Virus record (IMG/VR): IMGVR_UViG_3300042396_000723
Coordinates: 32,185-96,184 of that record
Reading direction: 5' to 3' (one strand)
Length of the DNA stretch: 64,000 nucleotides
Source: a virus
Every line of letters begins with the position of its first letter. The stretch's first letter is position 1. The position numbers were made by a program, and so were the translations under genes. The notes beneath the pieces were generated by a model that made no database searches, was not told the DNA's origin, and worked only from the letters and a program-made list of their open reading frames with translations. Positions 44,073-64,000 of the stretch are shown one piece after another.

Positions 44073-44146
44073 TATAAAGTCCCGTTGATCTATAAGAATT
44101 TAACCTTAAAATTATAGTAATAACTTCTGATCAGAAGGGTTTTATC

Positions 44147-45555: not shown

Positions 45556-45596
45556 TTCCTGTGTTTATTTTACAATCTTATAAATTAAGATTTGAT

Positions 45597-45672
45597 GCTC
45601 CGCCAACAGAAATCCAGGCGAAATTAGCGATCGCCAAAGTACATCTCAATATTGGTAGAAGTGAACTTAATT
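45597..45672 (+). pseudogene. decayed remnant of the family N-domain start
   Basis: One frame reads APPTEIQAKLAIAKVHLNIGRSELN then stop, matching the paralog N-domain opening (APTExQMKLxIAQxLSM...) but truncated. Confidence 0.35.
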
Positions 45673-45723
45673 AAGCAAAAACAAAGTACAATAGACTCAT
45701 CGCATTAAAAAGGAAAATCAATC

Positions 45724-45948
45724 ATGAAAGCTAAAAAAACTGCTGTTGAAGGACAGAAGAAAATTAAAACCGTTCCCCCTGCTGTTGTAGATGAAGATGA
45801 GGATGTTTTAGGGGAAGGGGAGACATTGCAGGAATTTGACAAGAGAATGGAGAAAAAATATCCGAAAAGAAGTTATGACGATTTGACAGAAGAAGAAAAA
45901 CGCGAACGTGCCAAACGTTTTGTAGCTCAAGGGCCGGAAGACTGGTAA
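45724..45948 (+). CDS. hypothetical small charged protein
   Basis: 74 aa, Lys/Glu-rich, between family members A and B. Confidence 0.3.
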   Translation: MKAKKTAVEGQKKIKTVPPAVVDEDEDVLGEGETLQEFDKRMEKKYPKRSYDDLTEEEKRERAKRFVAQGPEDW

Positions 45949-45997
45949 ACTCCCCAGCCCGCACCCGTACAAAAAAATTTAGTTTATCTCAAAAACA

Positions 45998-48900
45998 ATG
46001 GTCACAACCTTAAACCGTCAAAATCCCCGTCGCCTTGATGCTGCTCCTACGGAAGTGCAGATGAAACTTGGTATTTCTCAAGTTTTGTCGATGCCATTTG
46101 CCTACAACTCTCCGGTTATCGTTCTGGATTTTGAAGTAGGCAATAAAAACATCATCAAGGGACGGTTTAAGGATGCCATTAGATCCCGTGTTTTTGAGTT
46201 TGAGATTGGGGATTCTATCACGTTCAAGCCGTTCACCTGGAGGCGAACGGATAGCGACGTTGACCCGATGGCATGGGAAGACTTCTCTAAAGGGTATTGC
46301 TACCGATTCGATGCAGTCAAGACCGTCAGAAAGGAAAAACCTAAGTGTGGCAATACTTCTTATAACTGCGGTAAAGCCTGCATTGGCTTAAACAAGAATT
46401 GCAAATCAGATCCCCCCGATAAACCGTCCCAGGAGAAAGTTGATAAACTCAGAGCCGCGGCAGGGGAGTTTAAAGCTGTTCAGGGCGATCCAACCAAGAA
46501 GCAAGAGGATAATAAGTTAACGCCAAAACCACAGGAAGTTAAGGAAGTCGCGCCCACCCCCTCTCCCGATAAAGCAGAAGTCCCTGTCACCGACCTTGCT
46601 AAACAGCCACCTGTTGCCTTAAAAATTGGTAAAAAATCAGTCAACCTAAAAGACGACCTTGATTCCTACAAAGATTTAAGAATAACCGCCGATCCCGTTT
46701 TAGGTTGGCAAGTTATCAATAAGAATGGGAACGTACTGAGAGAACCGCCCAAGGGCAACACGGCTCCAAGTCATAGATTCAAGAAAAGAGAGCAGGCTGA
46801 AAAGTTTGCTAACGATGTGATGACACGGGTTGAGAAGTTGCAGAAGGCTCAACCAAAACCGGATGCTGATGTAAGTGACTCTGATAAAAGGTCATTTGAA
46901 AGTCTTTACACCACAAAATTATCATCCGCCCAACAGTTGCTTAACTTAGAAAAAAACGCAAAAATAGCGCGAATATCTCCCAGTGAAGATCAAAAAAATT
47001 ATGACAAAAAACAACCCGACCTCAATATTGATTCGGGGCCAGGAATAATGGAAGGTTGGAGGACTGCGAAACCAGACGGATCTGTCCAGGGAATCCCTTG
47101 GTCTGTCAAGGCGGAGGGTCAAGAAAAGTCACGGGCTATCGTGGGTGCTAGATTAACGGATCATCCAGCCAGCCCTAATTTAAAAAGACTCAGGTTATAC
47201 GACGCAGACGGACGTAATGAGACAATTGACTTCAAAAAGGGTGATAGAAACGCATCTCTTAGGGCTAGAAGACTTGTTAGAGAAATCGCACAAGGAAAGT
47301 CTCAAGAGATGGAATCTGGCGACATAAAAGCGTTGATTGAGGGAGGTAAAGAGGGTTTAGCTAAAAGAAAAGTGGAAAAGGCAAGATTAGCTGCTGAAGA
47401 CAAGCAATTTAAAGCAGCCTTAGATGATTATTTAAAATCAAAAAACCTAACAAGAGAAAGCATTAAAGGTTTGACCGATATCGGAATGGACGATCTTATC
47501 GAAAAAGTTGAGAAATACCAGAAATCACGATCTCAAACCCCCAATTCAGCAGGGGATAAGGGTGCGGGGGGTAAAACGTTTGACCTAAATGATTTATGGC
47601 GACAAACCGCCGACGCTGCTTATTCTAAAAACAAAGATGGTGTCTCAAAAAATCTTGAGCAATGGAAGGAAGTTGTAAAAAAATTAGAGTCAGGAGAAGG
47701 GATCTCTAAAGACGTTAACTTAAACGAATACGAAAAGTTAATGGATAATTTAGAAAAAAAATTAGTCCTCGATCCCAAAGATCCGTCTAATGTTGAATTT
47801 AAAAAGATTACGGGATCTATTTCTAAGATTCTTAGTAAAGCAGGCAGTCTCAACCCGTTAACACAAGAAGACCTAGAAAAAGCTCACCCTAACTTTAGAC
47901 CAATCATGCAACGAATTAATAAAACCGTTGCTAAGGATTATGAATTATTTGACAAAAAAGAGCGAGTTCAAAAAGAGTTAAATAGCCTAAAACAAGAAAA
48001 ATCTTATAACGAGGCTGTGATATTAAATAATTCAAAACGATTCCGAGAAATAGGTATTAATAATAACGAGGTAGAAATTCAAAGACTTTCCAAGAAAAAA
48101 CCGAGCGATTCAGTTGAGGTTAGAAATCCTGTCTCAAATTTACCAGAAAGGACTATTTCGGCATCCAAACGGATTAAGGAACTTCAAGATGAAATTGGGG
48201 AATTGAATAATAGTGAAAAAGCTAAAATAGAAGAAGACAGGGCTAGAAAAGAAATAGCCCGATTGCAAAGCCCAATGAAGGATGCAGAGAGTAGAATAAA
48301 CGCCATTTTAGACGAGAAGAAAAAATTAAGGGAATCTCGCGGCGGATCTAGTTCACAATCAGAACCCAAGCAAACCCCAAATTCAGTAGGGGTTGATGGT
48401 GCGGGGGGTAAATCAGTTGATCAACAATATAAGGATATAATTGCTAAGTCGAAAGATCCAAAGGGAACAGAGGAAGTTTTATCGTCAGCATTAAGAGGTG
48501 GGTTTGGTGACTTTGAAAGAAAAAATTATAACGAATATTCAACCGCTATAAAATCTGGGACTGTTCCAAAAGGAATGGGGAACTATTATCAAAAACAAGT
48601 CGACAAATATAAACCCATTATTGAGGCGGAAGATTTTATTAACGAAAGGAAGAAAAAAGCAATTAGTGGAGACTATGAAACAGAACAAGAAGCTGGGGTT
48701 TATGTTCTTAATAAATTAAAGCAAAAAGGCTACAAAGAACACGAATATTATGACAGTCCAGACTATGAAAAAGATTATGGAAAATTGGTGGGGGTAATGA
48801 AATCTGTTAAACTTCCTCCGCCGTTGTCTGGTATCGTCCCCGGTAAAGAATTAAAACAGACATTAACTCCGGGTGACAAACTACTTGTTAAAGAGGATAC

Positions 48901-49282
48901 TTATTCGTTAATGAGTAGTGGAAATACCCCTACTGGCTATCGAATAGTTGATGGTGGCGAAGTTTTAAAGGTTAATGTCAAGAATGTTAAAACCCGCGTT
49001 AGAGGCGAATACATGGGGAAACCCTACGAGAACGAGCCGTCTCTCGCTCTTGATAAAGTTACCCACGTCATCCGAGATGGTAAACGTTACAAGGTAGATG
49101 ATTCTGATAGATCCCCCAATGACTTAAAGTCGGAATCCTCCAAATCCCAGAAAGCAGTAAAACAAAAGGCAGTAAAACAGAAAGCAATAAAAGTTCAAGG
49201 GGAGCGATCGCAAAAACAAGAATCCCCTCTAATTCCGAAAGAGGAAATAGTTAAAGATGCTCCAATACTGATGTTAAGGTAA
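45998..49282 (+). CDS. modular family member B: N-domain, 4-Cys linker, long Lys/Glu-rich helical C-terminal region
   Basis: 1094 aa; N-domain and KPKCGNTSYNCGKACIGLNKNCKSDPPD shared with paralogs; C-terminal region has internal repeats (SAGDKGAGGKTFD / SVGVDGAGGKSVD; QKAVKQKAVKQKAIK). Confidence 0.5.
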   Translation: MVTTLNRQNPRRLDAAPTEVQMKLGISQVLSMPFAYNSPVIVLDFEVGNKNIIKGRFKDAIRSRVFEFEIGDSITFKPFTWRRTDSDVDPMAWEDFSKGYCYRFDAVKTVRKEKPKCGNTSYNCGKACIGLNKNCKSDPPDKPSQEKVDKLRAAAGEFKAVQGDPTKKQEDNKLTPKPQEVKEVAPTPSPDKAEVPVTDLAKQPPVALKIGKKSVNLKDDLDSYKDLRITADPVLGWQVINKNGNVLREPPKGNTAPSHRFKKREQAEKFANDVMTRVEKLQKAQPKPDADVSDSDKRSFESLYTTKLSSAQQLLNLEKNAKIARISPSEDQKNYDKKQPDLNIDSGPGIMEGWRTAKPDGSVQGIPWSVKAEGQEKSRAIVGARLTDHPASPNLKRLRLYDADGRNETIDFKKGDRNASLRARRLVREIAQGKSQEMESGDIKALIEGGKEGLAKRKVEKARLAAEDKQFKAALDDYLKSKNLTRESIKGLTDIGMDDLIEKVEKYQKSRSQTPNSAGDKGAGGKTFDLNDLWRQTADAAYSKNKDGVSKNLEQWKEVVKKLESGEGISKDVNLNEYEKLMDNLEKKLVLDPKDPSNVEFKKITGSISKILSKAGSLNPLTQEDLEKAHPNFRPIMQRINKTVAKDYELFDKKERVQKELNSLKQEKSYNEAVILNNSKRFREIGINNNEVEIQRLSKKKPSDSVEVRNPVSNLPERTISASKRIKELQDEIGELNNSEKAKIEEDRARKEIARLQSPMKDAESRINAILDEKKKLRESRGGSSSQSEPKQTPNSVGVDGAGGKSVDQQYKDIIAKSKDPKGTEEVLSSALRGGFGDFERKNYNEYSTAIKSGTVPKGMGNYYQKQVDKYKPIIEAEDFINERKKKAISGDYETEQEAGVYVLNKLKQKGYKEHEYYDSPDYEKDYGKLVGVMKSVKLPPPLSGIVPGKELKQTLTPGDKLLVKEDTYSLMSSGNTPTGYRIVDGGEVLKVNVKNVKTRVRGEYMGKPYENEPSLALDKVTHVIRDGKRYKVDDSDRSPNDLKSESSKSQKAVKQKAVKQKAIKVQGERSQKQESPLIPKEEIVKDAPILMLR

Positions 49283-49457
49283 CAGATAGAGATGGAATTA
49301 TTCTTGTGGAAGCCGAAGAAGTATAGAAAATTAACAATAAATTAGTGGTTTTGCTTCTGTTTTGCCCAAAATAAAACTGTTATAATTAATAATAACAAAC
49401 GCCTCTCGCGGTGCGCTAACACCCAGAGGCAGTAGATCCTATCCAAGAGGAACCACA

Positions 49458-50186
49458 ATGACTAATTTATCATTATTACCTGACGATATTCGTTCTGAAT
49501 TTTCCGTTAACGATCAAGGTCAGGCTTTTGCGAGTAGACGGGCGATCGCACGGTTGGCAGGCGTTTCTCATGTGTCCATCGGGAATCTATTGGATAAAAT
49601 CGCTGTTAACCTAGACCTCCCCGAAAGCATTGAAATCCTTGGAGGGCAGGACTTTGAGGGTGTTAACCTGATCCCTGATACCGTTGCCTCCCGGATTATT
49701 GAGTATTACGCTTTTGATGCTAAACGTTATTGCACAGAACAAGCCAAGCGAGTTTATAAAGCATTCGGGGCTATCGGGTTTCGGTCGTGGGTACAAACTG
49801 AATTAGGTTGGCAATATTCACAACCTAAGTTACCTCAGACTTATGCTGAGGCATTACTGGAGGCGGGACGGTTAGCGTTAGAAGTGGAGAAGTTGGAAGC
49901 CGAGAAAACATTGCTTGAGCAAGAGAATGGCGAACTCTCCAAAAATTTAGATGAGTTATTTGATTATTCCTCTATTGTTCGGATTGCCAAGTTTAACCAA
50001 ATCTCAGAGAAAATCTTTAACTGGCGGTTACTCAAGGCATTGAGTCTTAAAATGGGGTTAGAAATTAAAAAAGTCCCGTGTCCCAGGTTTGAGACAAAAA
50101 GCCTATATTCTCACGATGTCTGGCGTGTTGCTTATCCTGAAATGAAGCTACCAGAAACGACAACGCTAGTTATTAACAGAGGATAA
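49458..50186 (+). CDS. antirepressor-like protein, paralogous in its C-domain to the Rha-family gene at 26576-27265
   Basis: C-terminus PQTYAEALLEAGRLALEVEKLEAEK...YSHDVWRVAYPEMKLPETTTL is near-identical in pattern to 26576-27265; the N-terminal domain is different. Confidence 0.5.
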   Translation: MTNLSLLPDDIRSEFSVNDQGQAFASRRAIARLAGVSHVSIGNLLDKIAVNLDLPESIEILGGQDFEGVNLIPDTVASRIIEYYAFDAKRYCTEQAKRVYKAFGAIGFRSWVQTELGWQYSQPKLPQTYAEALLEAGRLALEVEKLEAEKTLLEQENGELSKNLDELFDYSSIVRIAKFNQISEKIFNWRLLKALSLKMGLEIKKVPCPRFETKSLYSHDVWRVAYPEMKLPETTTLVINRG

Positions 50187-50262
50187 CCAAAACAGTAGGA
50201 GGGATGCGTTAAAACATCCTTTCTCTGTACTAAGATCGGGGTATATCCTACTTTTTAACCCC

Positions 50263-50682
50263 ATGCTATCCCTAAGATTTAACGCCAATCAAGTCCGAAA
50301 TTATCTAAATAAATTAATTAAAAAGTTTCAGAATCTTAACCCCGAACTGCATAAAGTTGGGCAGTTTATGGTGGCATCAACCGATGAGAACTTCCAAAAG
50401 GAACAGAGTCCTTATGGGGAGAAATGGGAACACTTAGCACCATCAACCCTCAAATACAAGGCAAGTCGGGGTTTTATTATGCAAATATTACAACGCCAAG
50501 GATTGTTGCGATCTTCTATTCGGTATCGGATTGAAAAAGGAAGGGTTGAGGTAGGGAGTCCATTGCCCTATGCCTCCTATTTACAAGAAGGCACTAAGAA
50601 AATGCCTAAACGTCAATTTTTAGGAGTAAGTCAACGCGATCGCAGGGAGATTATCGCTATTCTAAAGGATTCTCTTCGTTGA
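50263..50682 (+). CDS. virion morphogenesis protein candidate (Mu G-like)
   Basis: 139 aa; C-terminal LPYASYLQEGTKKMPKRQFLG resembles the Mu gpG-type signature; located in the head module. Confidence 0.4.
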   Translation: MLSLRFNANQVRNYLNKLIKKFQNLNPELHKVGQFMVASTDENFQKEQSPYGEKWEHLAPSTLKYKASRGFIMQILQRQGLLRSSIRYRIEKGRVEVGSPLPYASYLQEGTKKMPKRQFLGVSQRDRREIIAILKDSLR

Positions 50683-51031
50683 TCTCGACGAGTTTATCAA
50701 TAAGACCTGGGTTGATTTCTTGAGGGATTTCTTGCTCAATAATCTTTAAAGTTTCCTTAGTCCAAGCAAGGATCAATCGTTCTGCCTCCGATTGATCCTC
50801 AGAAATTAACGAAGCGATAATCAATAGTTCTACGAAATCCGTCCGTCGCTCCCCCATTAAAATCCGTCGAATTGTCTGCCAATCCCATCCACTTTTTTCA
50901 CTAAATTCCATCATCCCAAAATTTGCATTTATAAGATCCCGTCGAATTGACCGACCAAGAGCGCGATAGGGAGCCAACGCACCAGATCCTAGTGTCTTCT
51001 TAGAAGGATACTCTCTTTTGATAGTAGTCAT
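50657..51031 (-). CDS. HTH-containing small protein, antisense insert in the head module
   Basis: 124 aa minus-strand ORF converging on the previous gene; segment FSEKSGWDWQTIRRILMGERRTD resembles an HTH. Confidence 0.35.
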   Translation of the reverse strand: MTTIKREYPSKKTLGSGALAPYRALGRSIRRDLINANFGMMEFSEKSGWDWQTIRRILMGERRTDFVELLIIASLISEDQSEAERLILAWTKETLKIIEQEIPQEINPGLIDKLVEINEENPLE

Positions 51032-51065
51032 TATTTATATCTAAATCATTGGTTTAATTTTAGTC

Positions 51066-51090
51066 GATTTTCTTATATAGAAATTATTTT
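51066..51090 (+). promoter_or_regulatory. conserved 25-bp element GATTTTCTTATATAGAAATTATTTT, copy 2
   Basis: Exact repeat of 44048-44072; lies 71 bp upstream of the ATG at 51161. Confidence 0.4.
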
Positions 51091-51160
51091 TTTACACCAT
51101 CTTTAAATGACTGATAAGGTGCGTTATTCTTTAACAAGAATTATTTTTTTGTATTGAGAA

Positions 51161-52675
51161 ATGGTTGAAATCAGGCTTGATGCTCCAGCTAAATTTAGGG
51201 TAATCAGAACTGATGATGGTCGCCTCCATTGTGAGGGGTCTTTTTGTCGTGATGGGGTGTTGGAATATCGTCAGCCTGATGGCTCCATAGTCCACGAACT
51301 CAGGAGACCGGAAACCAATGCAGAACTAGCCACAGTGGAGAGTTTTAAGCTCCTCCCCCTGGTAATTGAACATCCCCATGTTGGGCTTCTTAATAGCGAA
51401 AGTTATAAGGATTACGCAGTCGGGATGACTGATTCTTCTGCTTATTACAACAAGGCTGAAGGGGTGATCGAAGGCTTGGTGTCGTTTTTTGATGCTAAAG
51501 CGATCGCCCTAATTGATTCAAGGGAAAAGGAACAGTTGTCTGCGGGATATACCTGCGATATCAAACAAGGGGCAGGGGTATGGAATGGTCAACACTACGA
51601 CAGAGAACAGATTAATGTTCGTGCTAACCATTTGGCTTTAACGAGCCGAGGAAGGGCAGGAGAAGATGCCCGTCTCCGATTAGATAGTGCTGCGGGGATT
51701 GGGCAAGCTGTTGCAGGGCAAGCTGTTGAAAACCCTAGTAACCCCAACAAAACCAAAGATAATGGAGATAATGAACAGCGCATGGCAATAATTAGATGCG
51801 ATGGAGTCGAATATTCAGGAATCCCTGAAGTTTTCGCTTCTATTAGTGGTACTCGATTCCGTGAATTAAAAGAATTAAAGGAACGCCACGATTCGCTTGT
51901 TACACGGTTTGACGCTACGATTCGGGAGAATCGGAAGCTAGAAGCCGCACAAGAGAACTACCAGTTTCGGTTGGATAACCTGGAAATCATTGTGGACAAT
52001 GCTGACAATGTCCTTGGTGAATTAGGTTATTACCGGAACGACATGGGGCAATACGTCCGTGTTGATGGGGGCAAAAAGAAAATGATGTCTCTTGTTCCCG
52101 AAGATGAAGAAATGATGGAAGATGAGGACAATGAAGATGAAGAAATGATGGAAGATGAGGTTATGGAAGAAAAAGAAACCATGACTTCCAGAAAGAAAAA
52201 AAAGTCCAAACCTCGTGCTGATGGCGACGATGAAGGCGAGAGTGATTACCGGGGTGATTCAATCGGGGATCTGTTGGCGATTTGGAAGGAAGCCGACAGT
52301 TTGTTACCAGGGTTCTCTGACACTCGGTTTGATAGTGGCTTCTCCACTAGCGATATCAAGCGCACTTTGTTGGCTGAAATCGAACCCAATATGGATTTGA
52401 CGTTCCGATCCGATTCTTATGTAGACGGGGTTTTTGCCTACATTCAGGAGAATTATGATTCCTCCCCCACCGATCCAGGTGACGAAGAAGAAGGGGATGA
52501 CGAGGAGGAAGACGATGGAGACTCGGAGGAGTTTTCCCATCGCCTTGATTCGGTACTCAAAAGACCTGCTCAATCTACCTACGGAGATGAACTCACCGAA
52601 TGGGAAAGACGACGGGTAGATGCCTATAAGCAGCCTTTAACGATAGGAAAAACACGCACGGGGTTTACTAGATAA
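51161..52675 (+). CDS. capsid scaffolding / head maturation protein candidate
   Basis: 504 aa; acidic low-complexity C-terminal half (MMEDEDNEDEEMMEDEVMEE, DEEEGDDEEEDDGD) typical of scaffolding proteins; lies immediately upstream of capsid-like genes. Confidence 0.4.
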   Translation: MVEIRLDAPAKFRVIRTDDGRLHCEGSFCRDGVLEYRQPDGSIVHELRRPETNAELATVESFKLLPLVIEHPHVGLLNSESYKDYAVGMTDSSAYYNKAEGVIEGLVSFFDAKAIALIDSREKEQLSAGYTCDIKQGAGVWNGQHYDREQINVRANHLALTSRGRAGEDARLRLDSAAGIGQAVAGQAVENPSNPNKTKDNGDNEQRMAIIRCDGVEYSGIPEVFASISGTRFRELKELKERHDSLVTRFDATIRENRKLEAAQENYQFRLDNLEIIVDNADNVLGELGYYRNDMGQYVRVDGGKKKMMSLVPEDEEMMEDEDNEDEEMMEDEVMEEKETMTSRKKKKSKPRADGDDEGESDYRGDSIGDLLAIWKEADSLLPGFSDTRFDSGFSTSDIKRTLLAEIEPNMDLTFRSDSYVDGVFAYIQENYDSSPTDPGDEEEGDDEEEDDGDSEEFSHRLDSVLKRPAQSTYGDELTEWERRRVDAYKQPLTIGKTRTGFTR

Positions 52676-53505
52676 TGCGGTACAATTACAATCTTCAATT
52701 TGATCGGGCGACTCCTGGCATGGGCGAGGGATCTATTAATTTTCCGAGGGTCAAAGCCCTTGTTTCTGTCAAGAATGCTGTTAAAGAGGTCTGGACTCTG
52801 GCGGTTCCTGCCTCCCCCACTTCTAGCACTACATATACCGTCAAATTAAACAACGGACTAGGTACGGCACGTTTTACAACCGACGCTAGTGCCACTCAAG
52901 CGGAACTGCAAGCTGGTTTATTGAATGCAATCCGAATAAACCCTGCTTTTGGGCGACGAGGGATTGCTGCTGTTAGTGGGAATAATGTGTTGTTTACAGC
53001 ACTGGAATATGGTATCGAAAATATCCTAACAGTTACTGGTGCTAGTTTAACAGCAACTAAAACTACGGCGATGACCATACCTCTTCCTGTCCCCTTCGGT
53101 CGGTTTGTCGCCAGAGCAAACACTGAAACCGATCCCAAAGTTGCAGGGCTTCCTACTGCTATTACTGACGTAATCCTGGGCATTACTCGAATCGTCAAAG
53201 ATATCGAAATGCAGCCTTTGATAAATCAAGGTGCAAGCTATGGTGGAACGACTTACCCATATCAAGATGTGATGGACGTGGTTGACCGGACAGGAGAATC
53301 GTCAGGGATCTGGGTTGAATGTGTCGAGACGGATATCACAATTAATGATGCCGTCTATGTCTCTATTGCTGCGGGACACGAGGGGAAAGCAACAAAGGTG
53401 ACAAGTGGCACGATTAATATCTCCACGAAGGCTGAGTTCAAGTGTTCCCCCGTAGTCACTAGCACTGGTGCGGTGTGCGTTTTGATCGGCTTCAATGTTC
53501 CCTAA
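52675..53505 (+). CDS. head structural protein candidate
   Basis: 276 aa, Thr/Ala/Gly-rich; start overlaps the scaffold-like gene stop. Confidence 0.35.
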   Translation: MRYNYNLQFDRATPGMGEGSINFPRVKALVSVKNAVKEVWTLAVPASPTSSTTYTVKLNNGLGTARFTTDASATQAELQAGLLNAIRINPAFGRRGIAAVSGNNVLFTALEYGIENILTVTGASLTATKTTAMTIPLPVPFGRFVARANTETDPKVAGLPTAITDVILGITRIVKDIEMQPLINQGASYGGTTYPYQDVMDVVDRTGESSGIWVECVETDITINDAVYVSIAAGHEGKATKVTSGTINISTKAEFKCSPVVTSTGAVCVLIGFNVP

Positions 53506-53530
53506 TTTGTATAGAAAGAATTTATAAACT

Positions 53531-54484
53531 ATGATGAACTTTTCTGGGACTACAAGGTTAGATGCTGATGAAATCGGCACGTTCTTTGGCTCTCTGATGG
53601 ATTTAGAGGCTCAGATAGATAAGGAATTTGACCTTGCGGACTATCCTTTCGCTGCTGGAGTCATTTGCCCTCTGAATATCCAAAACAAGCCCTGGGCAAA
53701 AACCTGGGGGTATCGGTGGCTCCGCCACGTTGGGCAGTTCAAGTTAATCCGAAACTACACCACAGACCTTCCCGAAGTGGAACTGGTCTATGGCGAGATG
53801 AAGATGCCGATTCATAAATGGGGACAAGGCTATAGCGTCTCTGAGGATGATATCGCGGCTGTTAGTCGGATGGGCGAGAGTATTGAAGAAGACAAAATCT
53901 GGACAATTCAAGAAGCCGCACAACAAAAAATCAATCAGTTGGTGGCAAACGGGGATTTAGAAACAGGAATGCCCGGTTTCTTGAATCATCCCCAAGCACT
54001 GCGGTCTTATGCTCCCTTCCCTTTGAACGGGTCAGCAACATCACAGCAAAAACTGAGTGTATTGAATGATTGTGTTAATGCTCCGACTCGGCTGACCAAT
54101 AACCGAGAGAAGCCGGACACATTGTTGATGGATTCGGAAACTTACGAACACCTCTCCTCGGATATTATTCAAATCGGCACATCCGCATTGGATCGTACGG
54201 TGTTAGAGCATTTCTTAAAAGTCAACCCTAATATCAAAGAAGTCGGCGTTGTGTCCGAGATGGCTCCTGACTATTTAGAGTCGATTGGTTTAGCTCCCAC
54301 CCGCTTTATTCAGGCTTTCCGTCGAGATCCCAAAAAAGTCTCTGCTAAGATTTATCAACCGTTAAAGTGGACTGATACTCGCCCCATTGGTGTTGATTCT
54401 TTCTGGCGTGGTGCCAAGTTTAAGTTTGGGGGAATTGATCTCAAACGCCCATTCTCCATGCACGTTGTAGTATTACCTGAATAA
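53531..54484 (+). CDS. major capsid protein candidate
   Basis: 317 aa ORF downstream of the scaffold-like gene, with a strong RBS context; assignment by position and size. Confidence 0.4.
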   Translation: MMNFSGTTRLDADEIGTFFGSLMDLEAQIDKEFDLADYPFAAGVICPLNIQNKPWAKTWGYRWLRHVGQFKLIRNYTTDLPEVELVYGEMKMPIHKWGQGYSVSEDDIAAVSRMGESIEEDKIWTIQEAAQQKINQLVANGDLETGMPGFLNHPQALRSYAPFPLNGSATSQQKLSVLNDCVNAPTRLTNNREKPDTLLMDSETYEHLSSDIIQIGTSALDRTVLEHFLKVNPNIKEVGVVSEMAPDYLESIGLAPTRFIQAFRRDPKKVSAKIYQPLKWTDTRPIGVDSFWRGAKFKFGGIDLKRPFSMHVVVLPE

Positions 54485-54486
54485 AA

Positions 54487-54966
54487 ATGTCTAAAACTAT
54501 CATCTTTGACCCCAAACTAAATCCTCACAATCCACGCATTCCCTATGGAATATCAGTGGAGGCTATCACTTCGCCGATTCGTTTTTCCCGTCCCATTAAT
54601 CGTGGGGGAACCAAGAAAACTTCCTTAGATGCGGTAGAAACACGGGGGAGTTGGATTCTTCCTGGGACTAATTTAGAACTTCCCGACGAGGACTATGAGT
54701 ATATTACTCGGCATCCTCTCGGATTACAACTTATTAATTGCGGAGCATTCAGAATCATCTCTCCCACACTAGAGGAAGGGAAGTTTCCCACTGAAACAAC
54801 CCTTGATTATATTGAAAAAGATGCCCTCGATCTGATTCGCAATTCTAGCGATATTGATTGGTTAGAACGATCCGAGAAAAGAGAAGGTCGTCCCGCTATT
54901 TCTAGGGCAATAGCAGAGCAAATCAAGAATATCAAGTCAGTCAATACTATGAACATCCGGGGGTAG
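54487..54966 (+). CDS. head-associated protein candidate
   Basis: 159 aa ORF following the capsid-like gene. Confidence 0.35.
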   Translation: MSKTIIFDPKLNPHNPRIPYGISVEAITSPIRFSRPINRGGTKKTSLDAVETRGSWILPGTNLELPDEDYEYITRHPLGLQLINCGAFRIISPTLEEGKFPTETTLDYIEKDALDLIRNSSDIDWLERSEKREGRPAISRAIAEQIKNIKSVNTMNIRG

Positions 54967-54969
54967 TAA

Positions 54970-55305
54970 ATGGTTCTCCCTTCCGAATTTTTAGCGGTTT
55001 ATCCTCAGTTCGCTGTGGTCGAATCTTCTGTGATTCAATACAGTTTAAACTTTGCCGAGAATAATTACTGCGCTGGTTGGGCAGATCCCAAGAGAACGGA
55101 TGGAATTATGTTGATTGCTGCCCATCGAATCAGCGTTGATTGGTTCCAACAGGCGGATATTGCCTCTAGTGTTACGGGAATCGCATCGGGGTCAGGGAGT
55201 TCCACCCCTTCTGGCTCCGAGAATGATTGGTCTTTAACGACTTACGGGAGGCAATATATCCACCTCCGCAATACTATCTTCACTCCCCCTATTTTGGTCT
55301 TATGA
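54970..55305 (+). CDS. hypothetical protein (head completion region)
   Basis: 111 aa ORF. Confidence 0.3.
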   Translation: MVLPSEFLAVYPQFAVVESSVIQYSLNFAENNYCAGWADPKRTDGIMLIAAHRISVDWFQQADIASSVTGIASGSGSSTPSGSENDWSLTTYGRQYIHLRNTIFTPPILVL

Positions 55306-55487
55306 AAGTACAGTTCCCTGATTTCTCAGTTGATAATGGTCGAGTTACTTCTGCCGGGATGGTAACTCCTGCTTCCCCAGAATTGCAAGCTATGGCAGCG
55401 ATTTATGTGGTGTTACAAGAAATTAACGAGAAGTTAGACAAATCAGACCACGCCCCGGTTTCTCATACTCCTAAAGAGAAGAAATGA
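55302..55487 (+). CDS. hypothetical small protein
   Basis: From the internal ATG at 55302, which overlaps the upstream stop (ATGA); the track ORF starts at 55227. Confidence 0.3.
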   Translation: MKVQFPDFSVDNGRVTSAGMVTPASPELQAMAAIYVVLQEINEKLDKSDHAPVSHTPKEKK

Positions 55488-55903
55488 GTCAATCTTTCGT
55501 TGAGCAAATGATAGCCCTAAGAGACCGAATCTCTCCCCTTGCGGGGGGATTTGGCAATCCCAACATTCAAAACCTCGTCGTTCGCACAAGAGTGGGCGAT
55601 GGGTACGAATATTTGGAGATTTCCCCAACTCCGGTTATCCAAAAACAATTCCCAAACAAGGAGGGGATTGAAAACCTAAGCTCAGTGGAGGGGATAACTA
55701 GATCCTATTCAGTTAAAGGGATTTCACGGCGTTATTTAGAGGTGCAATTGAAAGGGGAGGGGGTTGACTATCTAGTCGGAGCCGATACTACTTATTACCC
55801 TCCTGATGGCGTTGTTTGTAACTTAGTCTCACTAACAGAAAATGTTGTGACGTGGGACATGGAGTTAGTTGAGAAGATTAGCTCACAAGGTTTTTATTTG
55901 TGA
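55484..55903 (+). CDS. hypothetical protein
   Basis: 139 aa ORF; start overlaps the previous stop. Confidence 0.35.
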   Translation: MSQSFVEQMIALRDRISPLAGGFGNPNIQNLVVRTRVGDGYEYLEISPTPVIQKQFPNKEGIENLSSVEGITRSYSVKGISRRYLEVQLKGEGVDYLVGADTTYYPPDGVVCNLVSLTENVVTWDMELVEKISSQGFYL

Positions 55904-55940
55904 TTAACTCACAAGGTTTCTATTTATAAAAGGTAAAATC

Positions 55941-57365
55941 ATGCTGAAATCAAAACCAAGTTCTTTGTATCGGGTTGATGAAGATGAAGTAGCAATGGGA
56001 AGTGGTGGGAGAGGAACTGCACCAACCGAAGCCCAAATGAAGCTATTTATTGCCCAAACTTTGTCAATGAACTTCGCCTATAACGCCCCAGTTGTTGTGC
56101 TTAAATTTGATGTTGCCGAGAATGGGAATATTGCCGGATTATTTAAAGATGCGGCACGTCCACGGATGTTTTCCTTTACCTTAGACGGGGAGTCCGTAAC
56201 TTATAAGCCTTACAAACCTGGTAAAATGGACAGCTTGGAATCAGACGAGGATGTCCAAGAATGGGAGGCATTTTCAGAGGGGTACGGGTTCCGCGTAGAT
56301 GCGGGGGTAGGGGGCAAAAAAAAGCCTCAATGCGTTAAGCCCACCGCTTACAATTGTGGGAGTGCCTGTATTAATGTGATGAAGGACTGTAAGACTAACG
56401 CCAAAGATGCAGTTTCTAAGGATAGGCTTAAAAAGTTGAAAGGTGTGGCGATGTCTTATTACAAGGAATTTGAGAAACTTGATAAGACAGAAAGAGGCAG
56501 TGACAAACAGAAGGGATTTGGCGACAAATCAAATCAAGCTAGTCGGAAAAGAGTTGAATTGATGGAGCAATCCAAAAGCAAAAAGGGGGTAAAGTCGGAC
56601 GAACCCCAGATCAAGCCCAAGGCAGAAAGTAAAAAGCCTTCTACTCAAAAATTATCAACACAGAAAACGGTAGAACCCGAAGTTAAAACCAAGCCAAACG
56701 TAGAACCTAAAAAGACGGAATCCAAGCCAAAGTCCAAAGCCAATCCCTTTTATAGTGACGAACCAATTAAGGATTATGAGACTTTTAAAAAGGAAATACC
56801 AAAAGAACTGGCTAGGTTTAATTTTGAATACAATATGGACGGGTTGATCCCTATTCCAAGAATGAGAGAGGAATTAAAAGGGAGAGTAAAAGCAGAGGAC
56901 TTTGATAAGTGGATGCTACAGTCTCAAGCCGATAATGATAATATTCGACTTAGTGAAGGGCAAAAGAAAATGCCAGGGGGGATAAAAACCGAACTAGGAA
57001 ACCACAGGGATAACATTCGATTTTTTGACAAAGAGGCTATGGAAAAAGCTAGGACTGAAACGAAAAGAAAACCCGGTCAAATAATAGATCCAAAAGAATT
57101 TGAAGACGTGGCAATGAAGTCCTTAACCGATCTTGATAAGGACGGGAAATATGGCAATCTCATCCCTATTCATGAACTCAGAAAAACCCTTGGCGACAAA
57201 GTAAGTCGAGGGGATTTCAATAATTTATTGATGGAAATGCAGGCAAATGACAAGGTTCAATTAATTGGGGGTCAAATGACAGATGCCACCCCAAAAAAAG
57301 TGGAGGACTCTGTTGTATCAGAGCTGGGGGCATATCGTTATTACGTTAAAATCCTCAAGGATTAA
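55941..57365 (+). CDS. modular family member C: N-domain, 4-Cys linker, duplicated C-terminal domain
   Basis: 474 aa; KPQCVKPTAYNCGSACINVMKDCKTNAKD; the C-terminus carries two related ~45-aa units (GLIPIPRMREELKGRVKAEDFDKWMLQSQADNDNIRL / GNLIPIHELRKTLGDKVSRGDFNNLLMEMQANDKVQL). Confidence 0.5.
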   Translation: MLKSKPSSLYRVDEDEVAMGSGGRGTAPTEAQMKLFIAQTLSMNFAYNAPVVVLKFDVAENGNIAGLFKDAARPRMFSFTLDGESVTYKPYKPGKMDSLESDEDVQEWEAFSEGYGFRVDAGVGGKKKPQCVKPTAYNCGSACINVMKDCKTNAKDAVSKDRLKKLKGVAMSYYKEFEKLDKTERGSDKQKGFGDKSNQASRKRVELMEQSKSKKGVKSDEPQIKPKAESKKPSTQKLSTQKTVEPEVKTKPNVEPKKTESKPKSKANPFYSDEPIKDYETFKKEIPKELARFNFEYNMDGLIPIPRMREELKGRVKAEDFDKWMLQSQADNDNIRLSEGQKKMPGGIKTELGNHRDNIRFFDKEAMEKARTETKRKPGQIIDPKEFEDVAMKSLTDLDKDGKYGNLIPIHELRKTLGDKVSRGDFNNLLMEMQANDKVQLIGGQMTDATPKKVEDSVVSELGAYRYYVKILKD

Positions 57366-57466
57366 ACAAGATCAAATAGCTACAAGCCGAAAGTGTTAAA
57401 AGAAATAGCAGTAGGAACATATAGAAATCCTTAATTAAGTTACAGGCAAAAGGAATATCAAAAAAC

Positions 57467-59332
57467 ATGATCATAGAGACTAAATCAGCCCCAACAAAAG
57501 CTCAAATGCAAGCAGCGATCGCCCAGACTCTTGCTCTTCCTTTTGCCTATAACTCCCCAGTGGATGTGATGGACTTTAAGGTAGATGGCACGGGTAAAAT
57601 ATCAGGGCGATTCAAGGATTCTGCCCGTCCAAGGGTGTTTGATTTTGAGTTAGATGGAAATACCGTCAACTTCAAACCTTACACGACAGGACGTATGGAT
57701 TCGGACGATGCAGTGGAACAATGGGAGGAGTTCTCGTCAGGGTATTCCTATCGTTTTGATGCTAAGGCAAAAGCCAAGGCGAAAAGCAAGACAGGAGACT
57801 CCAAGAAACCCCAATGCGTTAAACCCACAGCATATAATTGCGGAAAAGCCTGTATAAATATTAATAATAATTGTAAATCCAACCCCGACGATGCTAACTC
57901 AAAGGATCGTTTAGAAAAACTGAAAGCTGCTGGTATTGATTACGCTAAAGAAACTAAGAAATCCACTCCTAAATCTACCGCAAAAACCAAGAAAGAGGTA
58001 GAAAAACCACCGGAAATAGATAAAACCCCTAAAATAGATAAAACCCCTGAAAAGATAGAGGGAAAGGCTACCGAGTCCAAATCCCTTAATTTAGTAGGAA
58101 AAGGGGATCACGAGTCCGTCCCCAAAGATGCGAATGAATACTATGAAGCAATGAAAACATCGGGCAATCCTATCTCTTATGACGATGCCATAAAGATTAC
58201 CGGAGCCGTTAGAGAGTGGACGGAGGATGCTTCTTATATTAGGGAATCTCAAAAAGCAGGGAAATACAGCATTATTGCCGACCGGATTAATGATTACGTT
58301 AAAAGTTCAACGCCATTCAAGGGCGAAATTTATCGAGGCATCTCCTTCGGATCAACAGATGAGGCTTTGAGTTGGGCTAAGGGAGATAGTGATGGGATAT
58401 TAGATAATCAGAATGCCCATGCTTCTTGGACTTCTAACTGGGATAAAGCCAGAAAGTTTGCTGGTAACAATTCGGTAAACGACTTTACATCGCAACCTGT
58501 CATTATCAAAACAAATAATAAGTCGGGTGCCTCCATCAAAAACCTAAGCAACATTGGCACAGAAGATGAGGTAGTGGTTGTCAAAGACACTCGCCATCGG
58601 GTTAAGAATGTTGTATACGAAGATGGTGTTTTGATCGTTGAGACAGAAGAAGTTTCTCCAGATGAGGGAAAGAAAGCGCCTGAACCATCACCAGAAATAA
58701 CTAAACCCCAAAAAGAATCCGAGGAAAAGGCAGTTAAACAACCCGAAAATAAACCCAAAAACCTTAATTTAGTGGGCAAAGGCGATCATGAATCCATGCC
58801 ATCAAGCCACAAAGAGTATTATAAAGCACTGAAAAAAGCAGGGGTCAATATTTCTGAGAAGGAGGCAGCAGCCACCACTACAGCCATCTATAAATGGACG
58901 AGGAATGCTAACGACATCCGAGCCGATCAAAAGGCAGGAGAGGAGAACGAAGATGCAAATCGAATCTCTAATTATGTCAGGAACTCAACCCCATACAAAG
59001 GCGAAGTTTACCGAGGGATTCACTTTGAAACCAAAGAGGAGGCTTTAAACTGGACTAAAGGCGACAAGGATGGAGTGCTAGATAATCAAGGTGCTCACGC
59101 CTCTTGGTCATCTAGCCTTAAAACAGCAGAAGAATTTTCAGACGATTTCTTTATTGAGGAAAAAAGATATCCTGTTGTCATTAAATCAATCAACAAATCA
59201 GGTGCTTCTATTAAGAATTTAAGCAACATCAAAGAAGAAGACGAGGTTATGGTTTTAAAGGATACTCGCCATCGGGTTAAAAGTGTCAGGGAAGAAAACG
59301 GACGGATTATTGTTGAAGCTGAGGAAGTATAG
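57467..59332 (+). CDS. modular family member D: N-domain, 4-Cys linker, two tandem ADP-ribosyltransferase-like domains
   Basis: 621 aa; each duplicated C-terminal unit has INDYV / ISNYV, YRG (KGEIYRGISF / KGEVYRGIHF), an STS-like HASWTS / HASWSS, and ExE followed by hydrophobics (TEDEVVVV / EEDEVMVL), matching the R-S-E ART motif order. Confidence 0.55.
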   Translation: MIIETKSAPTKAQMQAAIAQTLALPFAYNSPVDVMDFKVDGTGKISGRFKDSARPRVFDFELDGNTVNFKPYTTGRMDSDDAVEQWEEFSSGYSYRFDAKAKAKAKSKTGDSKKPQCVKPTAYNCGKACININNNCKSNPDDANSKDRLEKLKAAGIDYAKETKKSTPKSTAKTKKEVEKPPEIDKTPKIDKTPEKIEGKATESKSLNLVGKGDHESVPKDANEYYEAMKTSGNPISYDDAIKITGAVREWTEDASYIRESQKAGKYSIIADRINDYVKSSTPFKGEIYRGISFGSTDEALSWAKGDSDGILDNQNAHASWTSNWDKARKFAGNNSVNDFTSQPVIIKTNNKSGASIKNLSNIGTEDEVVVVKDTRHRVKNVVYEDGVLIVETEEVSPDEGKKAPEPSPEITKPQKESEEKAVKQPENKPKNLNLVGKGDHESMPSSHKEYYKALKKAGVNISEKEAAATTTAIYKWTRNANDIRADQKAGEENEDANRISNYVRNSTPYKGEVYRGIHFETKEEALNWTKGDKDGVLDNQGAHASWSSSLKTAEEFSDDFFIEEKRYPVVIKSINKSGASIKNLSNIKEEDEVMVLKDTRHRVKSVREENGRIIVEAEEV

Positions 59333-59343
59333 GAGATTTAACT

Positions 59344-59436
59344 ATGAGTTTAACGACTAGAAAAGATGCCATGCTAACGGAATCTCAGATGAAGTTGGCG
59401 ATCGCCCAGACTCTTGCCCTTCCTTTTATGTTCTGA
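59344..59436 (+). pseudogene. truncated N-domain remnant upstream of family member E
   Basis: Reads MSLTTRKDAMLTESQMKLAIAQTLALPFMF then stop; identical in pattern to the opening of members D and G but ends after ~30 codons, indicating a deletion of the rest of the N-domain. Confidence 0.4.
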
Positions 59437-59437
59437 A

Positions 59438-63474: not shown

Positions 63475-64000
63475 ATGCTAATAGATAAATCAACTGAAGA
63501 AGACTATCTCAATGGTCGTACTTTTGCTCAGGGTTATTTTTTGCGGATTGACGCAGCTAGAGCCGACGCAGCTAGAGCCACCCCAAAATGCAAGAATGGG
63601 GTTTCTTATAGCTGTGGGAAGTCCTGTATTAGCCTTAAGAAAAATTGCAAGTCAGAACCGCAAGATGAAAAAGGGAAACAAATTCTTAAGGCAGTAAAAT
63701 CCAAGGCTTCTGAGTTTGCTAAAACAAAAGCAAAAACACCCAAAGCTACTCCAGTTAAGCCTACTGAAATTAAGCCAGATGTAGAAGCTCCTCCCCCTCC
63801 CCAAGGTGATATAAAGGTTAAGGCATCTAAATCAAAAACCAAGGTATCAAAACCCGTCGCAGTGGAAGCAGAGAAAAAAGCGACTCCTGCCAAAACCAAA
63901 AAAGCAAAACCCTCAACAAAGCTTAGTGAAGTTAGCAAAGAGCAGAAGAAAGTGGAGGCGATCGCAAAACCATCCAAAACAATAGGAGATGGAACTCATG
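63475..64000 (+). CDS. modular family member H (partial, runs off window): truncated N-domain, 4-Cys linker, Lys-rich region
   Basis: ATG at 63475 preceded by AGGAGG; FAQGYFLRIDAARADAARATPKCKNGVSYSCGKSCISLKKNCKSEPQD; contains a 15-bp tandem duplication (GACGCAGCTAGAGCC x2); no stop before the window end. Confidence 0.45.
   Translation, partial: MLIDKSTEEDYLNGRTFAQGYFLRIDAARADAARATPKCKNGVSYSCGKSCISLKKNCKSEPQDEKGKQILKAVKSKASEFAKTKAKTPKATPVKPTEIKPDVEAPPPPQGDIKVKASKSKTKVSKPVAVEAEKKATPAKTKKAKPSTKLSEVSKEQKKVEAIAKPSKTIGDGTH

What the first reader, a model, noticed from the sequence alone, without database searches (positions are those of the whole stretch)
45597..59436. Decayed remnants and deletion derivatives show rapid turnover of the paralog array
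Three pieces of evidence: (1) 45597-45672 encodes a frame-truncated N-domain opening (APPTEIQAKLAIAKV...). (2) 59344-59436 encodes the first 30 codons of the N-domain and then stops, with member E restarting at 59438 directly at the Cys motif, consistent with a ~270-bp deletion relative to D and G. (3) Member H keeps only the last ~15 residues of the N-domain and carries a 15-bp tandem duplication (63555-63584). Together these indicate recombination among paralogs, typical of polymorphic or diversifying loci.
Basis: seen in the sequence. Interest (0 to 1): 0.6.

Follow-up and report, generated by a model that had tools for sequence, protein, structure and literature searches.

The report
Gene stumps in a cyanophage effector array
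The two short "remnant" reading frames are leftover front ends of deleted genes, sitting in a fast-rearranging set of related head-module genes of a Planktothrix cyanophage; this is ordinary gene decay, but the gene family it affects has not been described.

Summary
All three features are in the sequence. The window is the head module of a phage about 96% identical to Planktothrix phage PaV-LD. It carries eight paralogs (A-H). Each has a roughly 105-aa N-domain, a four-Cys knuckle and a variable C-terminus.

Remnant 2 (59344-59436) is not what is left of a 270-bp deletion inside E. It is the first 28 codons of a separate gene, X, which is intact (471-941 aa) at the same position in relatives. 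About 1.4 kb was lost, joining the stump to E's own 5'UTR.

E and F lack the N-domain in every relative, and E is under purifying selection (omega 0.10). H is the same truncated form in PaV-LD. These are stable short forms, not decay.

Remnant 1 (45561-45674) is an old stump shared by 12 loci. Eight of them have no in-frame start codon before the N-domain opening, so it is not a conserved leader peptide. It marks the boundary of the A presence/absence difference, and in one contig it has recombined with B.

The 15-bp duplication is at 63550-63579 and is single-copy in PaV-LD.

The window and PaV-LD differ by at least 7 structural changes in these arrays, at a core-gene dS of 0.01-0.19. Turnover is therefore real, but the stumps come mostly from non-homologous deletions.

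Relatives fuse the shared module to InPase, ParB, ART, GNAT and LPD1 domains, which suggests virion-delivered effectors.

The parts
41814..43802 (+). Portal protein with a C-terminal InPase domain; marks the start of the head module
   Evidence: Pfam Phage_portal_3 2.4e-44 and InPase 5.2e-26
44590..45555 (+). Member A (321 aa): N-domain, Cys knuckle and a C-terminus that Pfam does not recognise. Present or absent between genomes.
   Evidence: HMM 2e-52. Absent from PaV-LD and 8 contigs; present in L002 (98.5% nt) and as a 74%-identical allele in L003, L004 and L006.
45561..45674 (+). Remnant 1: 5' stump of an N-domain gene. Homology covers 45585-45641; the HIP1 octamer is at 45627-45634. The tail AHLNIGRS.LN* is unrelated to the family.
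   Evidence: The same stump is PaV-LD ORF059R. Eight loci have no in-frame start before the opening. In L003 its leader is fused to B.
45724..45948 (+). Small conserved gene (PaV-LD ORF060R homolog) between remnant 1 and B
45998..49282 (+). Member B (1094 aa). Intragenic direct repeats at 47534-47583 and 48371-48420 flank an 837-bp segment that PaV-LD lacks.
   Evidence: the single PaV-LD copy is a left/right hybrid
55941..57365 (+). Member C (474 aa). Its C-terminal ~520 bp has no DNA similarity to the PaV-LD ORF078R allele.
57467..59332 (+). Member D (621 aa): N-domain, Cys knuckle and a duplicated C-terminal region; the second copy matches ADP-ribosyltransferase models. HIP1 at 57515-57522.
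   Evidence: Pfam ART 1.2e-5 at residues 512-617; internal repeat 58307-58611 / 58985-59286
59344..59436 (+). Remnant 2: first 28 codons of the deleted gene X (59344-59427) joined to E's native 5'UTR (59428-59437). HIP1 at 59398-59405. From HIP1 onward the sequence looks like D rather than X.
59438..60532 (+). Member E (364 aa). Starts at the Cys knuckle; has a long helical region and an alpha/beta domain with an invariant HExxH motif. It lacks the N-domain by long-standing design, not by recent loss.
60529..61668 (+). Member F (379 aa). Starts MIKYREDKREKKAQC, keeping only the last few N-domain residues. Its ATG overlaps E's stop. The PaV-LD ortholog is annotated 'virion structural protein'.
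61950..63401 (+). Member G (483 aa), full-length with an E/F-type HExxH C-terminus. PaV-LD keeps only a 103-aa stump of it (ORF083R). HIP1 at 61998-62005.
63475..64000 (+). Member H (runs off the window). Keeps about 25 residues of the N-domain tail plus the Cys knuckle.
   Evidence: the PaV-LD ortholog ORF085R is annotated 'minor virion protein'
63550..63579 (+). In-frame 15-bp tandem duplication (DAARA x2) in the linker of H
   Evidence: TRF: 2.0 copies, 100%; single copy in PaV-LD

Best explanation
The window holds two arrays of paralogous genes inside the head-morphogenesis module of a PaV-LD-like Planktothrix phage. One array lies between the portal and ORF069 (A, B). The other lies between ORF077 and the tape-measure gene (C-H).

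Members share an adaptor made of a small alpha/beta N-domain, a disordered linker, a four-Cys knuckle and a helix. Downstream of it they carry different enzyme-like C-termini. They are most likely virion-associated effectors delivered with the DNA; this step is inferred, not shown.

The two 'remnants' are non-functional 5' stumps. In each case a deletion began 25-28 codons into an N-domain gene and ended just upstream of the next retained gene. This left the old ribosome-binding site and start codon plus a short, meaningless reading frame. Remnant 2 is the stump of gene X, with about 1.44 kb lost relative to L005. Remnant 1 is an older stump that the whole phage group inherited.

E, F and H are not decay products. 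They are long-lived versions cut at three different points in the disordered linker, and they are kept by selection. The 15-bp duplication in H is a recent slippage event in that same linker.

Shown: the homologies, the breakpoints, the intact counterparts, the population polymorphism, and the selection on E. Inferred: virion packaging, effector function, and neutrality of the stumps.
For: The window is 96% identical to PaV-LD.

Remnant 2:
- Window 59300-59414 is 92% identical to the 5' end of intact X, directly downstream of D, in L005, L007, L009, L010, L011, L023, L028, L037 and L045.
- In those contigs E begins with the same 5'UTR and start (ATGTTCTGAAATGAAG) and has no N-domain opening upstream of it.
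- The window junction is CCTTTT|ATGTTCTGAA.

E and F:
- E homologs are 359-366 aa down to 57% identity.
- E omega is 0.10 with dS 2.2, against core-gene dS 0.39.

Remnant 1:
- The same peptide tail and stop codon occur in 12 loci.
- The start codon varies: GTG, ATG, or none in 8 loci.
- The flanking non-coding DNA is just as conserved as the stump.
- L003 fuses the remnant's leader to B, with the crossover in an 11-nt identity.

The same kind of stump recurs elsewhere: PaV-LD ORF083R (G codons 1 to about 98 joined to ORF084R's 5'UTR); a 152-aa X stump in L023; a 46-aa F tail in L009; and decayed E-like stumps between C and D in L005, L008 and L009.

Family function:
- A profile of the module finds 201 cluster representatives.
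- Among 75 of them Pfam finds InPase (9), ParB_N (3), ART-type (3-4), GNAT (2-3), esterase (2), LPD1, a kinase and pentapeptide repeats.
- The window's portal carries InPase.
- The GenBank depositors called the F and H orthologs virion proteins.
- This domain set and the packaging logic match polyvalent proteins (PMC5512222) and the T4 internal proteins (PMC3012670).
Against: No direct evidence that any member is in the virion was available. The PaV-LD genome paper is not held, so only GenBank product names could be used.

Remnant 2's stop lies 1 nt before E's ATG, and the stump keeps a GGAG ribosome-binding site. A role in translational coupling therefore cannot be excluded.

Remnant 1 gives omega 0.19-0.53 over only 28 codons, which is uninformative.

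The direction of the A indel (loss or gain) is not resolved, because the junction shows no microhomology.

Three of the four 5' stumps break within the first ~30 codons. Purely random deletion would not predict that.

Metagenomic contigs may contain assembly errors; the frameshifts in the A gene of L004 and L006 are a possible example.
Confidence: 0.8

Rival explanations
1. The stumps are kept on purpose as short upstream reading frames. Ribosomes would load at the old ribosome-binding site, translate 30 codons, terminate 1 nt before E's ATG (TGAAATG) and re-initiate. E's expression would then be coupled to the stump.
For: A GGAG sits 8 nt upstream of the ATG at 59344, and the stop/start spacing is 1 nt. 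The 151-nt region is 100% identical in the window, PaV-LD and L032. E has no obvious Shine-Dalgarno sequence of its own.
Against: Relatives express the same E from the same 5'UTR without any stump. The 100% identity is not unusual, since neighbouring 100-nt bins show 0-5 mismatches. Remnant 1 has no in-frame start before the opening in 8 of 12 loci. Neither region shows RNA structure (z = 0.0 and 0.8) or an Rfam match.
Confidence: 0.12
2. One reading: E is a D/G-like gene that lost about 270 bp of its N-domain by an internal deletion, so remnant 2 and E are two halves of one former gene.
For: The stump is followed directly by a gene that starts at the Cys motif. A +1 shift would join the two frames.
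Against: E-like genes without an N-domain occur throughout the group, and the relatives examined at DNA level share the same UTR and start. The stump is orthologous to the first 28 codons of X, a separate 471-941-aa gene with its own Cys knuckle and C-terminus, located between D and E in relatives. The missing segment is about 1437 bp relative to L005.
Confidence: 0.04
3. Programmed +1 frameshifting or stop-codon read-through fuses the stump to E, making a minor isoform that carries an N-domain helix.
For: The E frame is open from 59414 and overlaps the stump frame by 23 nt.
Against: The overlap (TTGCCCTTCCTTTTATGTTCTGA) has no known +1 slippery motif (judged by reading the sequence against motifs known to me). 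A tRNA-Phe slip from UUC to UCU cannot re-pair. No stimulatory RNA structure is present. The arrangement is absent from most relatives.
Confidence: 0.02
4. The remnants are sequencing or assembly artefacts, that is, frameshift errors in otherwise intact genes.
For: PaV-LD's D gene has a single extra C that splits its N-domain. The A gene is frameshifted in L004 and L006. So single-base problems do occur in this data set.
Against: Both stumps lack hundreds to thousands of bases, not one base. They are identical or near-identical in an isolate genome and in independent metagenome assemblies.
Confidence: 0.02

Closest known systems
T4 internal proteins (IPI-III) and Alt, targeted to the head by a capsid targeting sequence
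   Same: A diverse set of injected proteins shares only a conserved N-terminal targeting element. They include an ADP-ribosyltransferase (Alt), and the set differs between related phages (PMC3012670; PMC5512222). The window shows the same layout: a shared N-terminal module, a variable payload that includes ART, and differences between close relatives.
   Different: The T4 targeting sequence is a short peptide, about 10 residues by my recollection, removed by the prohead protease. Here the shared part is a folded domain of about 100 aa plus a four-Cys knuckle. Three members lack the N-domain. Neither packaging nor cleavage has been shown. No T4 internal-protein or Alt family was among the Pfam or PHROG matches.
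Polyvalent proteins of phages and conjugative elements (Iyer et al. 2017, PMC5512222)
   Same: The domain toolkit matches: InPase (also fused to the portal here), ParB, ART, GNAT, a zincin-like HExxH domain and LPD1. The genes sit in the virion module of a phage with a portal-terminase packaging system.
MuF polymorphic toxins of temperate phages (Jamet et al. 2017, PMC5576092)
   Same: A conserved N-terminal head-associated domain is joined to a variable C-terminal toxin or effector domain, encoded next to the portal.
   Different: Pfam finds no MuF domain in any member. No obvious immunity gene follows the members. The phage is not known to be temperate.
Rhs/CDI polymorphic toxin loci with displaced 'orphan' cassettes (from my own knowledge)
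   Same: A conserved junction motif precedes variable C-termini. Arrays hold truncated copies, and recombination at the conserved part swaps payloads. E, F and H start at or near the conserved Cys motif, much as orphan cassettes start near VENN or PxxxxDPxGL.
   Different: Orphan cassettes are 5'-truncated and silent. Here the debris consists of 5' stumps (3'-truncated), while E, F and H have their own start codons and E is under purifying selection.
Ordinary gene remnants in variable regions of phage genomes
   Same: Short ORFs homologous to the start of an intact gene at the same position in relatives, with variable start codons.
   Different: Nothing essential. This is what the two remnants themselves are.

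Membership tests
Gene remnant / pseudogene stump | Significant homology to part of an intact gene | tested here: met
   Remnant 2: HMM E=4.6e-6 and 92% nt identity over 115 nt to intact X. Remnant 1: HMM E=0.6 alone, but its leader heads a full-length gene in L003.
Gene remnant / pseudogene stump | An intact ortholog at the same position in relatives | tested here: met
   X lies between D and E in relatives (intact in L005, L007, L009, L010, L011 and L045). G is intact in the window but a stump in PaV-LD.
Gene remnant / pseudogene stump | No constraint on the reading frame | tested here: inconclusive
   The start codon of remnant 1 is not conserved and is absent in 8 loci. Omega of 0.19-0.53 over 28 codons is not informative. 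Remnant 2 is identical in all three carriers.
Conserved leader peptide / upstream ORF | A translatable ORF conserved wherever the downstream gene occurs | tested here: not met
   E occurs without the stump in L005, L007, L008, L010, L011 and L045. Remnant 1 has no in-frame start before the opening in 8 of 12 loci.
Programmed ribosomal frameshift site | A slippery motif plus a stimulatory element in the overlap | tested here: not met
   No known motif seen on reading 59414-59436. RNA fold z = 0.76. No Rfam match.
Polymorphic toxin system (MuF / Rhs / CDI type) | A shared N-terminal trafficking domain with variable C-terminal domains | tested here: met
   N-domain HMM E<1e-48 in A, B, C, D and G; the Cys motif is in all eight. 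C-termini differ: an ART-type domain, an HExxH domain, and several unrecognised.
Polymorphic toxin system (MuF / Rhs / CDI type) | The family's own N-terminal domain (MuF PF04233, Rhs repeats, or a two-partner-secretion domain) | tested here: not met
   The Pfam scan of all members shows none of these.
Polymorphic toxin system (MuF / Rhs / CDI type) | A cognate immunity gene directly downstream of each toxin | tested here: inconclusive
   Most members abut the next member with no small ORF in between. Only the ORF060 and ORF082 homologs are candidates, and their function is unknown.
Polyvalent proteins (Iyer et al. 2017) | Several effector domains in one polypeptide | tested here: not met
   Window members carry one recognisable payload each; D's is duplicated. 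Some distant relatives are 1200-1975 aa with 2-3 matched stretches of the module, and one has LPD1.
Polyvalent proteins (Iyer et al. 2017) | The typical domain repertoire, encoded among virion genes | tested here: met
   InPase, ParB_N, ART, GNAT and LPD1 in family members. The genes lie between the portal and the tape-measure gene.
T4-type capsid-targeted internal proteins | Presence in the virion and removal of the targeting element by the prohead protease | not testable with these tools
   Only GenBank product names are available ('virion structural protein' for ORF081R, 'minor virion protein' for ORF085R). The primary paper is not held.
Zincin metallopeptidase (E, F, G C-terminus) | HExxH on a helix after a mixed beta-sheet, plus a match to a known zincin family | tested here: inconclusive
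   H263, E264 and H267 are invariant. The motif lies on helix 258-272, after strands 229-253. Pfam gives only E of about 0.1 to M90 and Zincin_1, and Foldseek finds no PDB match.

The most novel reading that the evidence does not exclude
The N-domain opening is a built-in recombination site. It encodes K-L-A-I-A-Q and, in D, G and both stumps, contains the cyanobacterial HIP1 octamer GCGATCGC. PaV-LD-like phages would use this site to delete, fuse and exchange capsid-delivered anti-host effector cassettes, and the 5' stumps would be its footprints. This would make the arrays a phage counterpart of polymorphic-toxin loci, built on a previously undescribed adaptor (N-domain plus Zn knuckle) that also occurs inside giant polyvalent proteins.
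Probability: 0.2. Interest if true: 0.7.

Novelty: new variant of a known kind. Interest (0 to 1): 0.45.

Why it matters
The stumps themselves are ordinary. What they reveal is more useful. A bloom-forming cyanobacterium's phage carries two arrays of genes built on one shared adaptor module with many different enzyme payloads. These arrays change by whole-gene gain, loss and replacement between genomes whose capsid genes are 98-100% identical.

If the proteins are injected effectors, the arrays record the phage-host arms race in Planktothrix blooms. The many public contigs from lake metagenomes would allow cassette turnover to be followed over time. The adaptor module is a candidate targeting tag for putting proteins into cyanophage heads.

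The work also corrects the annotation. PaV-LD ORF059R and ORF083R are stumps, and the annotated start of ORF079R is displaced by a frameshift.

Tried and rejected
- RNA element at the stumps: no Rfam match at E<=1 over 43.8-64 kb. Fold energies are no better than shuffles.
- Promoter or terminator scan around remnant 1: nothing above the shuffled expectation.
- Programmed frameshift: no motif found.
- E's C-terminal domain: good model (pLDDT 86) but no Foldseek PDB match and no PDB sequence match.
- A's C-terminus looked ParB-like by eye (VVGNHLTHAAAIKAG). Neither Pfam nor PDB sequence search confirmed this. ParB_N is found only in 3 other family members.
- The word-indexed protein search with the N-domain found only 4 proteins. 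The exhaustive profile search was needed.
- tblastn against isolated phages finds the module only in PaV-LD.
- The PaV-LD genome paper could not be read, and other papers gave no virion proteomics for these ORFs.
- Polarising the A indel from junction sequences failed, because there is no microhomology.
- HIP1 enrichment in stumps (10 of 11 against 25 of 48 full genes) was not used as statistical evidence, because the stumps represent only 2-3 independent events.
- P0128, a 5-stretch hit, matches bacterial Ig, polysaccharide-deacetylase and other Pfam domains and was treated as a probable false positive.
Full report
**Context.** Window 41.8-64 kb is the head-morphogenesis module of a phage closely related to Planktothrix phage PaV-LD. 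Megablast gives 95.9% identity over 80% of 44-64 kb. Gene order runs from the portal, through the prohead protease and major head protein, to the tape-measure gene. Within this module there are eight paralogs:
- A, 44590-45555
- B, 45998-49282
- C, 55941-57365
- D, 57467-59332
- E, 59438-60532
- F, 60529-61668
- G, 61950-63401
- H, 63475 to the window end

A, B, C, D and G have an N-domain of about 105 aa (HMM E<1e-48). All eight have the motif C-x7/8-C-G-x2-C-x6-C followed by a conserved helix. An AlphaFold model of D residues 1-164 (pLDDT 69) shows four parts: a helix plus four-stranded sheet (residues 10-71); a low-confidence linker (75-115, containing one short predicted helix); two small hairpins that carry the four cysteines; and a long helix.

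**The observation.** All three items are present.
- Remnant 1 is the ORF 45561-45674, with APPTE... starting at 45597.
- Remnant 2 is the ORF 59344-59436. Its TGA lies one base before E's ATG at 59438.
- H starts at 63475 with about 25 residues that align to the end of the N-domain. It carries a perfect 15-bp x 2 repeat at 63550-63579, 5 bp left of the stated position.

Statistically, remnant 2 stands on its own (HMM E=4.6e-6). Remnant 1 does not (E=0.6), and needs the comparative evidence below.

**Remnant 2 is the stump of a separate gene, not the lost front of E.**
- The 151 nt at 59300-59450 are identical in PaV-LD and in contig L032.
- In nine other contigs, window 59300-59414 matches at 92% the ribosome-binding site and first codons of a gene I call X. 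X is 471 aa in L005 and up to 941 aa in others. It sits directly after D and has its own N-domain, Cys knuckle and C-terminus.
- In L005, L007, L008, L010, L011 and L045, E follows further downstream. It begins MKKP[KQ]CEKP and has the same upstream sequence, ATGTTCTGAAATG, as in the window. No N-domain opening lies in front of it.
- The window junction is therefore CCTTTT|ATGTTCTGAA: X codon 28 joined to position -10 of E. Relative to L005, 1437 bp are missing.
- The last two codons and the stop of the stump (MF*) come from E's own 5'UTR.
- From the HIP1 octamer at 59398 onward, the stump matches D (29 of 30 nt with 57515-57544) better than X. This points to an earlier exchange between paralogs.

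**E, F and H are stable short forms.**
- E-like proteins found in the large protein collection are 359-366 aa down to 57% identity.
- Window E against L005 E gives dN/dS 0.10 with dS about 2.2. Core genes of the same two genomes have dS 0.39. So E is selected, and its alleles are much older than the genome backbone.
- F (MIKYREDKREKKAQC...) has the same start in every relative that carries it, with its ATG overlapping E's stop.
- H has the same truncated start in PaV-LD.
- The three short forms begin at three different points inside the predicted disordered linker. That is what domain-boundary variants look like, not random decay.

**Remnant 1 is an old, shared stump that still takes part in rearrangements.**
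- The peptide ...R[FL]DA[PA]PTE[IV]Q.KLAIA[QK][AV]H[LF][ND]I[GS][RK]S[KE]LN*, with the same stop codon, occurs in 12 loci. It always lies about 400 bp upstream of B, with the small ORF060 gene in between.
- It is PaV-LD's annotated ORF059R.
- Its start codon is GTG in the window and ATG in PaV-LD. In L004 and L006 it is ATG behind a different leader. In eight loci there is no start codon before the opening.
- The non-coding DNA that follows is as conserved as the stump itself. So nothing points to a conserved peptide.
- The A gene lies immediately upstream in the window, L002, L003, L004 and L006. It is missing from PaV-LD and eight contigs, and the indel ends exactly at the start of the remnant ORF. 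Two A alleles only 74% identical occupy this site, so A is probably old and its absence a loss. The junction, however, gives no proof.
- In L003 the remnant's leader (MQNLKFHSNRLDAAPTEVQMKL) runs straight into B, and ORF060 is gone. This is a deletion by crossover in an 11-nt identity between the remnant's opening and B's opening.

**Turnover is real.** Window and PaV-LD core genes differ by dS 0.01-0.19, with the major head protein identical in amino acids. Yet the arrays differ in at least seven ways:
1. The A indel.
2. An 837-bp indel in B, flanked by 50-bp direct repeats, where PaV-LD's single copy is a hybrid of the two.
3. Replacement of the ORF062-064 region.
4. Absence of ORF065-068 (3.7 kb), which includes another family member and a stand-alone ART-like gene.
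5. A swapped C-terminus in C.
6. G intact here but reduced in PaV-LD to ORF083R. That stump is G codons 1 to about 98 joined to the 5'UTR of ORF084R, with 1.44 kb missing relative to L008.
7. The 15-bp duplication in H.

Other contigs add a 152-aa X stump followed by a 101-aa G tail (L023), a 46-aa F tail (L009), and decayed E-like 5' stumps between C and D (L005, L008, L009). The window's own nucleotide dot-plot shows paralogs only 68-80% identical, apart from the 30-nt D/stump patch. Homologous exchange between paralogs inside one genome is therefore limited. Most stumps come from non-homologous deletions that end just before the next gene's translation signals.

**What the family probably does.**
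- A profile of the N-domain plus Cys module finds 201 cluster representatives (E<=1e-3) among 1.84 billion proteins. The module is usually at the N-terminus, sometimes internal, and some proteins of up to 1975 aa show several matched stretches.
- Among 75 of the representatives, Pfam finds InPase (9), ParB_N (3), ADP-ribosyltransferase families (3-4), GNAT (2-3), esterase (2), LPD1, a protein kinase and pentapeptide repeats.
- In the window, D's C-terminal copy matches ART models. E, F and G share a domain with an invariant HExxH. The portal itself ends in an InPase domain.
- This is the repertoire of the 'polyvalent proteins' that phages are thought to package and inject (PMC5512222).
- The layout of a shared N-terminal element with diverse payloads mirrors the T4 internal proteins and Alt (PMC3012670).
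- The PaV-LD depositors labelled the F and H orthologs as virion proteins. I could not read the primary data.

I therefore infer, at roughly 55-60% confidence, that A-H are head-associated effectors delivered with the DNA.

**Rivals.**
- Translational coupling through the stump is possible for E but unnecessary, because relatives manage without it.
- A programmed frameshift has no motif or RNA structure to support it.
- Artefact is excluded by independent assemblies.

**A lead that is not established.** The HIP1 octamer GCGATCGC occurs 24 times in the window against 0.26 expected. It lies in the A-I-A codons of the N-domain opening in D, G and both stumps. Three junctions fall within about 25 nt of it: the end of remnant 1's homology, the L003 crossover, and the X-to-D switch in remnant 2. 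With only 2-3 independent events, and with this also being the best-conserved stretch among the paralogs, no conclusion is possible.

**Verdict.** The remnants are ordinary 5' gene stumps. The gene family they belong to is an undescribed variant of the capsid-targeted or polyvalent effector theme.

Noticed in passing
window, 24 sites including 45627, 57515, 59398, 61998: The cyanobacterial HIP1 octamer GCGATCGC occurs 24 times against 0.26 expected. Four copies sit at the same codons (A-I-A) of N-domain openings, close to three recombination junctions.
   Followed up: partly
window 44049-44073 and 51066-51090: A perfect 25-bp repeat, GATTTTCTTATATAGAAATTATTTT, lies about 75-100 nt upstream of the ORF058 homolog and of the prohead protease gene. 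It is present at both sites in PaV-LD as well. It may be a late promoter or operator.
   Followed up: partly
window 41814-43802: The portal protein carries a C-terminal InPase domain (residues 507-630), a fusion described for polyvalent-type phage proteins.
   Followed up: partly
L001 19250-19280 (PaV-LD ORF079R): PaV-LD's D ortholog has one extra C 14 nt after HIP1. This splits the N-domain across two frames, so the GenBank start is internal. It is either a real frameshift or a sequencing error.
   Followed up: partly
L001 23706-24017 (PaV-LD ORF083R): This annotated 103-aa gene is a stump of G (codons 1 to about 98) joined to the 5'UTR of ORF084R. G is intact in the window and in L008.
   Followed up: yes
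window 47534-47583 / 48371-48420: 50-bp direct repeats (84% identical) inside B flank an 837-bp segment that PaV-LD lacks. PaV-LD's single copy is a hybrid of the two, the signature of unequal crossover.
   Followed up: yes
window ~60700-60800 (F): A 15-bp copy-number difference in the PVIPA repeat of F relative to PaV-LD. This is a second in-frame 15-bp length variant besides the one in H.
   Followed up: no
L005 7939-8001, L008 9912-9974, L009 8614-8655: Decayed E-like 5' stumps (E's UTR plus MKKPKCEK...) lie between C and D in relatives. They are not recognisable in the window.
   Followed up: partly
window 49458-50186: In this KilA-like protein the C-terminal 124 aa are 97% identical to PaV-LD ORF064R, while the N-terminal half is unrelated: a domain swap at the edge of array 1.
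   Followed up: no
L004 7056-7950, L006 5127-6021: The A-like gene is split into two overlapping ORFs in these contigs but is intact in L003. This is either a frameshifted pseudogene or an assembly error.
   Followed up: no
proteins P0073, P0079, P0082, P0098, P0107: Distant relatives of 1200-1975 aa each show three matched stretches of the N-domain/Cys module, and P0082 ends in LPD1. The module may separate payloads within polyproteins.
   Followed up: partly
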